IMG/VR virus record: IMGVR_UViG_3300022661_000085
Span: 12,191 to 76,190 of that record
Origin: a virus
Lineage: Duplodnaviria; Heunggongvirae; Uroviricota; Caudoviricetes
Reading direction: 5' to 3' (one strand)
DNA: 64,000 nt
The stretch's first letter is position 1; every line of letters begins with the position of its first letter. Shown piece after piece: positions 35,501 through 35,970 of the stretch. The notes under the pieces were generated by a model. It had not been told where the DNA came from. It saw only the letters and a list, made by a program, of their open reading frames with translations, and made no database searches. A program made the translations under genes and the position numbers.

Positions 35501-35618
35501 AGGGGTGTAGCTCAGCGGTTAGAGCACGTATTGTTAGTCGAGTTATCGACTGCTACTGCAATTTTCTTTAGCACTGCATTCGCTCGTGGTCATAGGTTCA
35601 AATCCTATCACCCCTACC
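35501..35618 (+). tRNA. abnormally long tRNA-like gene (~118 nt) with an insertion of about 40-50 nt between the D-arm and T-arm
   Basis: The 5' AGGGGTG-TA-GCTCAGCGGTTAGAGC is a normal acceptor plus D-arm. The 3' TGGTC-ATAGGTTCAAATCCTAT-CACCCCT-A is a normal T-arm plus acceptor. The middle holds the hairpin AGTCGA-GTTA-TCGACT. Confidence 0.45.
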
Positions 35619-35623
35619 GTATC

Positions 35624-35743
35624 GAGAGTGTAGCTCAGTTGGATAGAGCACGTAATTAACGAGGTTTGTAAAAGCCTTATACTGCAAGGTTATTTTGAGC
35701 TGTTAACTCCGTGGTCGCAGGTTCGAGTCCTGCCACTCTCGCA
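35624..35743 (+). tRNA. abnormally long tRNA-like gene (~120 nt) with an internal insertion
   Basis: 5' GAGAGTG-TA-GCTCAGTTGGATAGAGC, then an insert flanked by GTTAAC, then TGGTC-GCAGGTTCGAGTCCTGC-CACTCTC. Confidence 0.45.
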
Positions 35744-35750
35744 TCGCTTT

Positions 35751-35835
35751 GGGCGAGTCGGATAGCGGCAATTCCGGCGGGCTGTAAACCCGTTGCCGTT
35801 CGGCTTCGCAGGTTCGAGTCCTGCCTCGCCCACCA
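35751..35835 (+). tRNA. tRNA-Tyr (anticodon GUA), long variable arm, CCA encoded
   Basis: GGGCGAG..anticodon loop CUGUAAA..GCAGGTTCGAGTCCTGC-CTCGCCC-A-CCA. Confidence 0.7.
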
Positions 35836-35841
35836 CTTTAT

Positions 35842-35970
35842 TGGGAAGTAGTCAAGTGGCTAAAGACAGCGGAACCATTATGTTGGTCTTGGTTAAGACC
35901 ACAACTGCAATGTACGGACTGAAAATCCGCCACATTATGTTACGTTGGTTCGAATCCAACCTTCCCAACC
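35842..35970 (+). tRNA. long tRNA-like gene (129 nt); probable tRNA-Phe (GAA) with a ~45-nt insertion 5' of the anticodon loop
   Basis: TGGGAAG acceptor, D-arm, 5' anticodon-stem strand GCGGA, then an insert holding the hairpin GGTCTT-GGTT-AAGACC, then ACGGA-CUGAAAA-UCCGC, T-arm GTTGGTTCGAATCCAAC, 3' CTTCCCA-A-CCA. Confidence 0.45.

What the first reader, a model, noticed from the sequence alone, without database searches (positions are those of the whole stretch)
35501..35970. tRNA genes with 40-50-nt intervening sequences at non-canonical positions
Three of four genes in this array (35501-35618, 35624-35743, 35842-35970) are 40-50 nt too long. Their ends fold as standard acceptor/D/T elements. 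For the third, the anticodon arm (GAA, Phe) is recognisable only after removing an insert. That insert sits between the 5' strand of the anticodon stem (GCGGA) and a repeated CGGA, and it holds a perfect hairpin GGTCTT-GGTT-AAGACC. Short introns in bacterial or phage tRNAs are not expected, since only group I introns are known there. They could be novel introns, self-cleaving elements, permuted or split genes, or deliberate tRNA mimics.
Basis: seen in the sequence. Interest (0 to 1): 0.7.

Follow-up and report, generated by a model that had tools for sequence, protein, structure and literature searches.

The report
tRNA genes carrying Y-RNA-like modules
Three phage tRNA genes are each interrupted in the anticodon stem by a 41-45-nt hairpin element, and that element also occurs free-standing beside a Ro60-like protein gene in many phages, so the inserts look like docking modules for that protein (a tRNA/Y-RNA hybrid) and not like any known kind of intron.

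Summary
Rfam's tRNA model matches all four genes full length. Genes 1, 2 and 4 each carry 41-45 extra nucleotides in the 5' strand of the anticodon stem. Deleting the insert restores a perfect Asn(GTT) arm in gene 2 and a Phe(GAA) arm in gene 4, and a 9-nt loop in gene 1. I found 59 such genes in related phage contigs; 31 give a perfect canonical arm after deletion, against 0.5% of shuffles. There is no bulge-helix-bulge motif, no ribozyme or group I match, and no insert-free allele. Each insert is a covarying hairpin followed by ACWGCAA. The same module, a stem plus invariant ACAGCAA, stands free in 1-3 copies beside the neighbouring gene 36159-37676. That gene is a DUF2828/DUF7788 protein that I show to be Ro60-like. 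The free-standing module also occurs in cultured Bacillus, Listeria, Staphylococcus, Enterococcus, Mycobacterium and E. coli phages. Best reading: the inserts are Y-RNA-type docking modules for the phage Ro60-like protein, which makes these genes tRNA/Y-RNA chimeras analogous to YrlA. Whether the module is later cut out to release a working tRNA is unresolved. I rate this a new variant of a known kind, of high interest.

The parts
35501..35616 (+). tRNA-like gene 1. The insert is 35529-35569 (41 nt), with hairpin AGTCGA-GTTA-TCGACT at 35536-35551 and ACTGCAA at 35555-35561. After deletion the arm is CGAGC-ACTGCATTC-GCTCG, a 9-nt loop containing GCA.
   Evidence: Rfam tRNA 49.8 bits over the full model; sequence; RNAfold predicts the hairpin and leaves the motif unpaired.
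35624..35741 (+). tRNA-Asn(GTT) gene 2. The insert is 35653-35696 (44 nt), placed after position 28 (CG|TA). The hairpin GAGGTTT-GTAA-AAGCCTT lies at 35661-35678 and ACTGCAA at 35681-35687.
   Evidence: Rfam tRNA 46.0 bits; perfect arm after deletion; 22+ homologous Asn genes carry an insert at the same site, and pairs 29-31:39-41 covary.
35751..35835 (+). Ordinary type-II tRNA-Tyr(GTA) with no insert.
   Evidence: ARAGORN; Rfam 54.4 bits.
35842..35968 (+). tRNA-like gene 3. It has a Tyr-like type-II body and, after deletion, a GAA anticodon. The insert is 35874-35918 (45 nt, boundary ambiguous by 4 nt). The hairpin GGTCTT-GGTT-AAGACC lies at 35885-35900, ACTGCAA at 35904-35910 and the anticodon loop CTGAAAA at 35919-35925.
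   Evidence: Rfam tRNA 41.5 bits. The 3' half matches phage tRNA-Tyr genes. Relatives have loops CAGAAAA and CAATAAA, which lack U33.
35222..35357 (+). Free-standing element: stem AAGGCAC / GTGCCTT closing a loop of about 113 nt that begins with ACAGCAA (35231-35237).
   Evidence: Sequence; motif and stem scan.
35389..35419 (+). Free-standing module in hairpin form (AAGCGA-12 nt-TCGCTT, then ACAGCAA), 82 nt upstream of gene 1. It has the same layout as the inserts.
   Evidence: Sequence.
35974..36036 (+). Free-standing Y-RNA-like element: stem AAGGCAC / GTGCCTT, ACAGCAA at 35983-35989, 40-nt loop.
   Evidence: Alignment A3 and covariation; fold.
36053..36111 (+). Free-standing Y-RNA-like element: stem AAGACGC / GCGTCTT, ACAGCAA at 36062-36068. 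Its loop holds an anticodon-arm-like hairpin, TCAGA-CGGTTAA-TCTGA, at 36080-36096.
   Evidence: In L003, L028 and L040 the equivalent hairpin has the loop CTTTTAA, the tRNA-Lys UUU loop.
36159..37676 (+). Gene for a Ro60-like protein (DUF2828 + DUF7788/vWA), 505 aa.
   Evidence: Pfam. A profile search hits the Thermus phage phiLo Ro60/TROVE structures at E=2.5e-5. The AlphaFold model's best full-length Foldseek hits are phiLo, human and Xenopus Ro60.
37694..37754 (+). Free-standing Y-RNA-like element just after the Ro60-like gene: stem AGAGGCG / CGCCTCT, ACAGCAA at 37702-37708.
   Evidence: fold z-score -4.6.
51961..52200 (+). Larger element of the same type, lying between tRNA-Gln and tRNA-Lys: stem AAGACACAC / GTGTGTCTT, ACAGCAA at 51970-51976, loop of about 215 nt.
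   Evidence: Sequence.

Best explanation
The 41-45-nt inserts are copies, in hairpin form, of a small RNA module: a 6-9-bp stem followed by single-stranded ACWGCAA. This module is the partner RNA element of the phage's Ro60-like protein, which is encoded 190 nt downstream at 36159-37676. The three genes are therefore tRNA/Y-RNA chimeras: a complete tRNA body with a docking arm for the Ro60-like ring projecting from the 5' strand of the anticodon stem.

The proposed mechanism is inferred by analogy with Ro60-Y RNA particles, in particular YrlA, whose second half is a tRNA-like domain. The ring binds the stem plus ACWGCAA. The attached tRNA body, like the T-arm or anticodon-arm mimics in the loops of the free-standing elements, is then presented to tRNA-recognising factors. 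These factors could be repair or processing enzymes or host tRNA-targeting nucleases, as part of the phage's RNA-repair and counter-defence apparatus.

What is shown: the shared module, its covariation, its linkage to the Ro60-like gene, and the Ro60-like fold. What is inferred: binding, and the fate of the insert. I lean, only slightly, to the view that the module stays in the functional RNA. It may instead be excised afterwards (see rival 1).
For: 1. All three window inserts, and 36 of 59 inserts in related loci, have the same layout: a 4-10-nt leader, a hairpin, 0-3 nt, ACWGCAA, then a 6-13-nt tail. A perfect 6-bp stem ends within 3 nt of the motif in 26 of 36, against 245 of 1800 shuffles, and each position shows several pair types.
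2. Free-standing elements with the same stem sequence class (AAGRCRC/GYGYCTT) and an invariant ACAGCAA flank the DUF2828 gene in the window, L002, L003, L028, L040 and L050. They also flank it in cultured phages: Tsamsa, VRE9_2, AYO145A (Felix-O1-like), DirkDirk, LP-064 and SEP9. In the 28-sequence alignment A3 the motif is invariant. The 7-bp stem is 95% paired and has compensatory changes at all 7 pairs (0 of 500 shuffles reach this). The elements are 12.8 times denser within 1.2 kb of the gene than elsewhere.
3. The gene product is Ro60-like. Homologues occur in 694 GenBank phage records, many annotated 'Ro-like RNA binding protein'.
4. In 23 of 36 loci with insert-bearing tRNAs, a Ro60-like gene lies on the same strand 42-608 nt away. 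Most of these loci were fetched by a tRNA pattern alone. Phages with a different insert class ('B') have a Ro60-like protein only 25-29% identical.
5. The loops of free-standing elements carry tRNA parts. Some carry T-arm-like hairpins and some carry anticodon-arm mimics with the Lys loop CTTTTAA. Displaying tRNA features is therefore a general property of this RNA family and does not require decoding.
6. No insert-free allele of the Asn lineage exists in 2.9 M viral contigs or 241 M metagenome records.
7. Several members have loops that could not decode: A33, or 8-9 nt.
8. Precedents: Y RNAs lie next to Ro60 genes and YrlA has a tRNA-like domain (PMC4201824). The phage phiLo Ro60 binds two upstream Y-like RNAs (PMC12135203). 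Three very highly transcribed unannotated regions lie upstream of the Rsr-like gene of a P100-like Listeria phage (PMC12282133); LP-064, a relative, has three tandem ACAGCAA elements in that position. The Bas63 Ro60-like protein gp130 counters the Ppl defence system (PMC11482910).
Against: - There is no direct evidence that the protein binds the module.
- After deletion, 31 of 59 genes have fully canonical anticodon arms (U33, R37, 7-nt loop) with at least 15 different anticodons and covarying stems. This looks like selection for decoding, which an arm protruding at position 28/29 would probably block, and so argues for removal of the insert.
- The motif differs from the YrlA motif GNCGAAN0-1G, and the only Rfam YrlA match (31 bits against a threshold of 69) is an artefact spanning two genes.
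- Class-B inserts lack ACWGCAA, and I found no free-standing class-B copies.
- Thirteen of 36 loci show no Ro60-like gene in the fetched stretch, though many of those stretches are short.
- DUF2828 genes sit in or beside tRNA arrays in many phages anyway, so part of the linkage may be generic.
Confidence: 0.55

Rival explanations
1. The inserts are true protein-dependent introns of a new kind. An unidentified endonuclease cuts at both ends (typically CG|UA...N|G). The phage's own healing-and-sealing enzymes (polynucleotide kinase, metallophosphoesterase, Rnl-type RNA ligase) then rejoin the exons and release working tRNAs. The Ro60-like protein binds the intron module as a chaperone, gatekeeper or platform, and the excised intron may persist as a Y-like RNA.
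For: - Deletion restores a perfect arm in 31 of 59 genes against 0.5% of shuffles, with anticodons GTT, ATT, TTT, GCA, TGG, GGG, TGT, GAT, GCT, GTC, TTG, CAA, CAT and others.
- Exon 1 ends in CG in 25 of 31 genes and the insert starts with TA in 24 of 31.
- Insert position varies (after 28, 29, 30, 31, 33 or 37), yet the flanks always add up to exactly 5 bp plus 7 nt.
- Phe(GAA) and a GCA tRNA are otherwise absent from the window's 16 standard tRNAs.
- The window encodes a PNK-like kinase (47000-47914), phosphoesterases, an RNA ligase (60869-62002), a Thg1-like enzyme, a nucleotidyltransferase and a macro domain.
- 'Enigmatic' tRNA introns have already been reported in Lak megaphages (PMC6784885).
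Against: - No endonuclease candidate was found.
- There is no BHB motif and no ribozyme match.
- The distances from the conserved module to either junction vary (leader 4-10 nt, tail 1-13 nt), so the module cannot act as a simple ruler.
- No insert-free allele or spliced copy was found.
- Canonical anticodon-arm mimics also occur in free-standing elements that cannot decode.
- Several family members have A33 or 8-9-nt loops.
Confidence: 0.3
2. The inserts are self-cleaving or self-splicing RNA elements: a miniature ribozyme, group I intron or BHB-type intron.
For: The inserts have conserved structure and a conserved 7-mer. A relative, L050, has RAGATH RNAs nearby, and RAGATH motifs were defined by association with twister and hammerhead ribozyme neighbourhoods.
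Against: - At 41-45 nt the inserts are far below group I size.
- No Rfam ribozyme or intron family matches, even at E<=10 in the window or E<=0.05 in four related loci.
- BHB is absent.
- Only 7 nt plus one hairpin are conserved.
- The same module occurs where there is nothing to splice.
Confidence: 0.03
3. The tRNA genes are dead, disrupted by insertion of a small mobile or repeated DNA element (MITE- or REP-like), or the motif is a DNA-level signal such as a promoter.
For: The module is repeated in intergenic DNA. Some family members have non-canonical loops. Lone 5' tRNA halves exist in L035, L037 and L039.
Against: - Acceptor, D, T and anticodon arms are intact and covary across phages in which the Ro60-like protein is only 41-75% identical.
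- G-U pairs and compensatory changes in the stems indicate structure at the RNA level.
- The motif is conserved next to DUF2828 in phages of Firmicutes, Actinobacteria and Proteobacteria, which have unrelated transcription signals.
- The sigma-70-type promoter scan shows no excess.
Confidence: 0.06
4. The genes are ordinary type-II tRNAs with long variable arms.
For: Gene 3 does have a 13-nt variable arm and a Tyr-like body.
Against: In all three genes the extra 41-45 nt lie between the D arm and the anticodon loop. ARAGORN's forced solutions with long variable arms have poor stems.
Confidence: 0.01

Closest known systems
YrlA/YrlB bacterial Y RNAs with Ro60 (Rsr) (Chen et al. 2014, PMC4201824), and Yrl1/Yrl2 of Thermus phage phiLo with its Ro60 (PMC12135203)
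   Same: Small RNAs are encoded in 1-3 copies right next to a Ro60-type gene. Each has a closing stem, a conserved short motif and a large loop. One class includes a tRNA-like domain. The genomic context is RNA repair (ligase, kinase, band-7).
   Different: - The protein belongs to the DUF2828/DUF7788 branch, not canonical TROVE.
- The motif is ACAGCAA, not GNCGAAN0-1G.
- The tRNA part here is a complete tRNA in normal topology: open acceptor end, real anticodon arm.
- The Ro-type module is an inserted side arm and does not replace the anticodon stem.
'Enigmatic' tRNA introns of Lak megaphages (Devoto et al. 2019, PMC6784885)
   Same: Over-long tRNA genes in large gut or rumen phages that standard tRNA finders miss. 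They have no Rfam match and no known splicing mechanism.
   Different: Lak inserts are 79-114 nt, lie in the anticodon loop near 37/38 and contain T-arm-like sequence. The inserts here are 41-45 nt, lie in the 5' strand of the anticodon stem, and consist of a hairpin plus ACWGCAA. One relative, L028 8073 (a Met CAT gene with a 71-nt insert containing a T-arm-like hairpin), resembles the Lak type.
Archaeal non-canonical BHB tRNA introns
   Same: Short inserts at positions other than 37/38, including the anticodon stem, removed by proteins and not by self-splicing.
   Different: No bulge-helix-bulge can be drawn at the junctions. The host is a bacteriophage. I did not search systematically for an EndA homologue.
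Group I introns in bacterial and phage tRNA genes
   Same: They interrupt tRNA genes in bacteria or their viruses.
   Different: Group I introns are over 200 nt, have a conserved catalytic core and lie in the anticodon loop. None of these features is present here.

Membership tests
Y RNA / YrlA-type Ro60 partner RNAs | Encoded adjacent to a Ro60-family gene | tested here: met
   The genes lie 190-660 nt upstream of a protein with a Ro60-like fold. The same arrangement holds in 23 of 36 related loci.
Y RNA / YrlA-type Ro60 partner RNAs | Stem carrying the Ro60-binding motif (GNCGAAN0-1G in YrlA) and a match to the Rfam YrlA model | tested here: not met
   The motif is ACWGCAA. The only YrlA match (31.3 bits, gathering threshold 69) spans parts of two adjacent tRNA genes. 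No YrlA match was found in the Tsamsa or VRE9_2 loci.
Y RNA / YrlA-type Ro60 partner RNAs | Contains a tRNA-like domain | tested here: met
   Full-length Rfam tRNA matches of 41-50 bits.
Y RNA / YrlA-type Ro60 partner RNAs | Physically bound by the Ro60 protein | not testable with these tools
   Needs RIP, EMSA or a structure.
Ro60/TROVE proteins (for gene 36159-37676) | HEAT-repeat ring plus C-terminal vWA/MIDAS domain | tested here: met
   Pfam DUF2828 + DUF7788, plus a weak VWA_2 hit. Profile hit to 9kop/9l5y at E=2.5e-5. Full-length Foldseek hits to phiLo, human and Xenopus Ro60, E from 1.7e-7 to 6.8e-5, TM 0.39-0.52. The model confidence is only moderate (pLDDT 74).
BHB (archaeal/eukaryal-type) tRNA introns | Bulge-helix-bulge (3-4-3) at the two splice sites | tested here: not met
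   0 of 37 strict; 4 of 37 relaxed against 103 of 1850 in shuffled inserts.
BHB (archaeal/eukaryal-type) tRNA introns | Splicing endonuclease (EndA/Sen) available | not tested
   No such Pfam hit among about 40 window ORFs scanned, but the host genome is unknown.
Group I introns | Conserved P1-P9 core, over 200 nt, match to Rfam Intron_gpI | tested here: not met
   The inserts are 41-45 nt and have no Rfam match.
Small self-cleaving ribozymes (hammerhead, twister, pistol, hatchet, HDV-like/theta) | Match to the family covariance model | tested here: not met
   No match at E<=10 in 35400-36100 or at E<=0.05 in L007, L022, L028 and L050.
Type-II tRNAs | Extra nucleotides form a variable arm between positions 44 and 48 | tested here: not met
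   The extra nucleotides precede the anticodon loop. Gene 3 has a separate 13-nt variable arm.
Lak-type phage tRNA introns | 79-114-nt insert in the anticodon loop containing tRNA-like (T-arm) sequence | tested here: not met
   Comparison with Table S6 of PMC6784885. BLAST searches with the window tRNA region (35400-36100), gene 3 and a class-B Asn tRNA found no Lak match beyond tRNA-Tyr similarity.

The most novel reading that the evidence does not exclude
These are the first members of a protein-dependent tRNA splicing system in bacterial viruses. A Y-RNA-like intron recruits a Ro60-like ring that holds the precursor inactive or shields it from host anticodon nucleases. The intron is then excised and the exons are sealed by the phage's kinase, phosphoesterase and RNA ligase. 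This would give the phage a switchable, defence-resistant tRNA supply and would link Ro60/Y-RNA biology to intron origin.
Probability: 0.3. Interest if true: 0.92.

Novelty: new variant of a known kind. Interest (0 to 1): 0.78.

Why it matters
- DUF2828-type Ro60-like proteins occur in hundreds of cultured phages, including Felix-O1-like, P100/A511-like, Tsamsa-like, SEP9 and cluster-L mycobacteriophages. One of them, Bas63 gp130, has been shown to counter a bacterial defence system. Their RNA partner has not been defined. Neither Rfam 15 nor my literature searches turned up this RNA element, and the five papers that mention DUF2828 are unrelated to phage RNA.
- The stem-ACAGCAA element identified here is a concrete, testable candidate for that partner.
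- The tRNA-embedded version shows that a complete tRNA can carry such a module. Either this is a new topology of tRNA-mimicking Y RNA, or it is a new class of short tRNA intron in bacteriophages. Each outcome bears on how Y RNAs arose from tRNAs and on how phages protect or regulate their tRNA supply.
- It also explains why standard tRNA finders under-count tRNAs in these phages.

Tried and rejected
- ARAGORN intron mode forces anticodon-loop introns. Its solutions for genes 1 and 2 (Asn with a 26-nt intron, Cys with a 25-nt intron, poor stems and long variable arms) contradict the comparative data. Only Phe(GAA) for gene 3 agrees.
- The weak Rfam YrlA hit at 35564-35678 is an artefact that joins the 3' half of gene 1 to the 5' half of gene 2.
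- I tested pairing of ACWGCAA with the end of exon 1 (GCACG-UA). There is no covariation: GCGCG and GCACG exons occur with both ACAGC and ACTGC, so I rejected it.
- Leader-tail pairing is not conserved (for example, L021 has an A-rich tail).
- Pairing between the intron and the anticodon (TTAAC/GTTAA in gene 2) is not conserved in homologues.
- BHB search: negative.
- Searches for insert-free or spliced copies of the Asn lineage found none in viral contigs. The two metagenome hits are unrelated fragments. I did not examine the 44 viral loci that matched a relaxed insert-free pattern, beyond establishing that none carries a Ro60-like gene.
- BLAST of the region against GenBank phages returned only tRNA-Tyr similarity.
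- Looking for an endonuclease among conserved neighbours gave nothing. The 465-aa protein (38607-40004) has no Pfam, PHROG, NCBIfam or PADLOC hit. A confident AlphaFold model (pLDDT 89) has no significant PDB match. It is not homologous to the 'exonuclease' next to the Tsamsa Ro-like gene. The 339-aa protein gave only a marginal PHROG exonuclease hit.
- The promoter and terminator scan of 34900-37900 shows no excess.
- A circular-permutation argument (YrlA order versus the order here) does not hold generally, because free-standing elements carry D/T-like parts in more than one order. I dropped it.
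Full report
**1. Checking the observation**

The region 35501-35970 holds four tRNA-like genes on the + strand. ARAGORN in default mode finds only tRNA-Tyr(GTA) at 35751-35835. The Rfam tRNA covariance model matches all four over its full length: 49.8, 46.0, 54.4 and 41.5 bits. In the three long genes it skips 56, 57 and 52 nt where the model expects 13, 13 and 7 central anticodon-arm positions.

Reading the sequence:
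- Gene 2: deleting 35653-35696 (44 nt) joins CG to GAG-CTGTTAA-CTC-CG, a perfect Asn(GTT) arm.
- Gene 3: deleting 35874-35918 (45 nt, boundary ambiguous by the repeated CGGA) gives GCGGA-CTGAAAA-TCCGC (GAA).
- Gene 1: deleting 35529-35569 (41 nt) gives a 5-bp stem around a 9-nt loop, ACTGCATTC.

The extra nucleotides precede the anticodon loop, so these are not type-II tRNAs. Gene 3 has a separate 13-nt variable arm, and its 3' half resembles phage tRNA-Tyr genes. ARAGORN's intron mode forces anticodon-loop introns and gives implausible answers for genes 1 and 2.

**2. The inserts are recurrent and not due to chance**

Relatives of the downstream protein led to loci L001-L005. DNA pattern scans of 2.9 M viral contigs added more loci. 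A structural scan of my own found 59 distinct tRNA-like genes of 102-142 nt in all the sequence held.
- Deleting one segment gives a perfect arm (5 bp, 7-nt loop, U33, R37, 4-5-nt variable loop) in 31 of 59, against 6 of 1180 shuffles.
- These arms carry at least 15 different anticodons: GTT, ATT, TTT, GCA, TGG, GGG, TGT, GAT, GCT, GTC, TTG, CAA, CAT and others.
- The insert follows position 28 in 23 of the 31. Positions 29, 30, 31, 33 and 37 also occur.
- Exon 1 ends in CG in 25 of 31, and the insert begins with TA in 24 of 31.
- Pairs 29-31:39-41 covary (GAG/CTC, GGT/ACC, GCT/AGC, GGA/TCC and so on).
- The remaining genes give non-canonical loops: A33, or 8-9 nt. The relatives of gene 3 are among them (CAGAAAA in L001, CAATAAA in L050).

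**3. What the inserts are not**

- No bulge-helix-bulge motif can be drawn at the junctions: 0 of 37 strict, and relaxed matches are no more frequent than in shuffles.
- No Rfam ribozyme, group I or other family matches the inserts, even at permissive thresholds.
- The distances from the conserved core to the two junctions vary.
- Candidate pairings between insert and exon are not conserved in homologues.
- No insert-free or spliced copy of the Asn lineage exists in the viral or metagenome collections.

**4. Anatomy of the inserts**

Most inserts ('class A', including all three in the window) consist of a 4-10-nt A/U-rich leader, a 6-10-bp hairpin, 0-3 nt, the heptamer ACWGCAA, and a 6-13-nt tail. 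A perfect 6-bp stem ends within 3 nt of the motif in 26 of 36 inserts, against 14% of shuffles, and each stem position shows several pair types, including G-U. RNAfold leaves the heptamer unpaired.

A second class ('B', 53-60 nt, ending in TTACTT) sits at the same tRNA position in contigs of 175-422 kb.

**5. The key finding: the same module stands free next to a Ro60-like gene**

Window intergenic DNA contains elements of the form AAGRCRC-NN-ACAGCAA(T/A)-loop-GYGYCTT(G). They lie at 35222-35357, 35974-36036, 36053-36111, 37694-37754 and 51961-52200. A hairpin-form copy lies at 35389-35419.

These elements bracket the gene 36159-37676. Its product has Pfam domains DUF2828 and DUF7788, plus a weak vWA hit. 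A profile of it hits the Thermus phage phiLo Ro60/TROVE structures (E=2.5e-5). Its AlphaFold model (pLDDT 74) has phiLo, human and Xenopus Ro60 as its best full-length Foldseek hits.

Homologues occur in 694 GenBank phage records. I looked beside the gene in seven cultured phages:

| Phage (host) | ACAGCAA elements beside the gene |
|---|---|
| Tsamsa (Bacillus) | yes |
| VRE9_2 (Enterococcus) | yes |
| AYO145A (E. coli, Felix-O1-like) | yes |
| DirkDirk (Mycobacterium) | yes |
| LP-064 (Listeria) | yes, three in tandem |
| SEP9 (Staphylococcus) | yes, three in tandem |
| R10Z (Vibrio) | one doubtful candidate only |

In the six clear cases there are 1-3 stem-ACAGCAA elements directly upstream or downstream.

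In a 28-sequence alignment the heptamer is invariant. The 7-bp closing stem is 95% paired, with compensatory changes at all seven pairs (0 of 500 shuffles reach this). Strictly defined elements are 12.8 times denser within 1.2 kb of the gene than elsewhere. No Rfam family covers them.

**6. Linkage between the insert-bearing tRNAs and the Ro60-like gene**

In 23 of 36 loci with insert-bearing tRNAs, a Ro60-like gene lies on the same strand 42-608 nt away. Most of these loci were fetched by a tRNA pattern alone, and many of the other 13 are short fragments.

Class-B loci carry a Ro60-like protein only 25-29% identical to the class-A one. RNA class and protein clade therefore change together.

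A caveat: DUF2828 genes sit in or beside tRNA arrays in many phages whose tRNAs are normal. Part of the linkage is therefore generic.

**7. tRNA parts occur in the free-standing elements too**

Some free-standing elements enclose a T-arm-like hairpin (Tsamsa 2254, AYO145A 3895, L026_1563, L040_4763). The element nearest the gene often encloses an anticodon-arm mimic. This is CAGA-CTTTTAA-TCTG, the tRNA-Lys UUU loop, in three phages, and CGGTTAA in the window at 36080-36096. Canonical anticodon-loop features in this RNA family therefore do not, on their own, prove decoding.

**8. Comparison with what is known**

- Y RNAs are encoded next to Ro60 genes. They have a closing stem, a conserved motif and a large loop, and bacterial YrlA has a tRNA-like domain (PMC4201824).
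- The phage phiLo Ro60 binds two Y-like RNAs encoded just upstream (PMC12135203).
- A P100-like Listeria phage has three extremely abundant unannotated transcripts upstream of its Rsr-like gene, which the authors proposed might be Y RNAs (PMC12282133).
- Bas63 gp130 (Ro60-like, Felix-O1-like phage) counters the Ppl defence, and its authors guessed that neighbouring 'tRNAs' might be Y RNAs (PMC11482910).
- Jumbo-phage comparative genomics places TROVE proteins with RNA-repair ligases and kinases (PMC7824862). The window has such a set: a PNK-like kinase, two metallophosphoesterases, an Rnl ligase next to a band-7 gene, a Thg1-like enzyme, a nucleotidyltransferase and a macro domain.
- 'Enigmatic' tRNA introns were reported in Lak megaphages (PMC6784885). 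They are 79-114 nt, lie in the anticodon loop and look different.

**9. Interpretation**

Best supported (confidence 0.55): the inserts are Ro60-like-protein docking modules, so these genes are tRNA/Y-RNA chimeras. This would be a new, non-permuted counterpart of YrlA for the DUF2828 branch of Ro60 proteins. The free-standing elements would be the simpler partner RNAs.

What is shown: the module identity, the covariation, the linkage and the Ro60-like fold. What is inferred: binding and function, namely presenting tRNA features to repair, processing or defence factors.

The main rival (confidence 0.3) is that the module is a genuine intron, excised by an unknown endonuclease and resealed by the phage's healing-and-sealing enzymes. 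The many canonical, diversified anticodon arms argue for this. The absence of any nuclease candidate, of a ruler and of an insert-free allele argues against it. The two readings are not mutually exclusive.

The ribozyme/BHB, dead-gene, DNA-signal and type-II readings are unlikely, for the reasons given in sections 1, 3 and 5.

**10. Verdict**

I rate it a new variant of a known kind (the Ro60/Y-RNA system with tRNA mimicry). It also yields a candidate RNA partner for a widespread phage protein. Interest: 0.78.

Noticed in passing
window 36080-36096; L003 ~2925-2945; L028 ~11063-11083; L040 ~5406-5426; L050 ~9938-9958: The free-standing element closest to the Ro60-like gene encloses an anticodon-arm mimic. 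It is CAGA-CTTTTAA-TCTG (the tRNA-Lys UUU loop) in three phages, CATTTAA in L050 and CGGTTAA in the window. It might act as a decoy for, or recruiter of, anticodon-loop-binding proteins.
   Followed up: partly
window 36159-44345; L050 10001-18743; L001 63-4533: Conserved gene block: Ro60-like gene, small ORFs, a 465-aa protein of unknown fold, a 339-aa protein, a ThiF/E1-like protein, a retron-type reverse transcriptase (41996-43390, closest to the retron St85 / PADLOC RT_II-A models) and RNase H (43908-44345). This is a phage-borne retron-like RT with no identified ncRNA.
   Followed up: partly
window 38607-40004: The 465-aa protein has about 94 homologues. Its AlphaFold model is confident (pLDDT 89) but has no significant PDB match and no Pfam, PHROG, NCBIfam or PADLOC hit. 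It may be a new fold.
   Followed up: partly
window 47000-49541, 57632-58441, 59725-62002: tRNA/RNA repair gene set: PNK-like kinase, nucleotidyltransferase, metallophosphoesterase, Thg1-like 3'-5' polymerase, and a band-7 protein followed by an Rnl-type RNA ligase.
   Followed up: partly
window 52548-56925: NAD+ salvage/synthesis cluster (isochorismatase-type nicotinamidase, phosphoribosyltransferases, NAMPT-like enzyme, NAD synthase) with a macro-domain protein at 55361-55831. This is typical of phage counter-measures to NAD-depleting defences.
   Followed up: no
window 62255-63800: A MazF/PemK-type endoribonuclease toxin gene lies next to a tyrosine integrase. I considered the toxin as a possible insert endonuclease and found nothing to support that.
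   Followed up: partly
window 35573-35581; L007 (- strand) 4333-4462 and its relatives in L013 and L018: After deletion of the insert, some genes have expanded anticodon loops: 9 nt (ACTGCATTC) in gene 1 and 8 nt (ATTAGGAA) in class-B genes. These could be frameshift-type or non-decoding tRNAs.
   Followed up: no
window 35876-35884 and 35933-35941: Direct 9-nt repeat CATTATGTT. One copy is in the insert leader of gene 3 and the other is in its variable arm.
   Followed up: no
L028 8073-8215: A tRNA-Met(CAT)-like gene has a 71-nt insert after position 33 that contains a T-arm-like hairpin (GGAGTTCAAATCTCC). It resembles the Lak megaphage intron type.
   Followed up: no
L035, L037/L043, L039 (positions as): Lone 5' halves of the Asn-lineage tRNA (acceptor, D arm, then CG|TA...) are followed directly by a different, complete tRNA. 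They may be split or decayed genes.
   Followed up: no
L050 4895-5302 and 9060-9224: RAGATH-16, RAGATH-4 and RAGATH-36 RNAs (the last two just under their gathering scores) lie upstream of the insert-bearing tRNA cassette in a close relative of this phage.
   Followed up: no
L095 (Bacillus phage Tsamsa) 2230-2395; L097 (E. coli phage AYO145A) 3880-4010: Unannotated gaps inside the tRNA arrays of cultured phages hold stem-ACAGCAA elements that enclose a T-arm. They are probably unrecognised tRNA-like Y RNAs.
   Followed up: partly
L031/L034 (~3873 / 5883): A type-I, Asn-like tRNA body carries the anticodon GCT (Ser codons AGY) after insert deletion. The mismatch between isotype and anticodon suggests anticodon switching within this tRNA lineage.
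   Followed up: no
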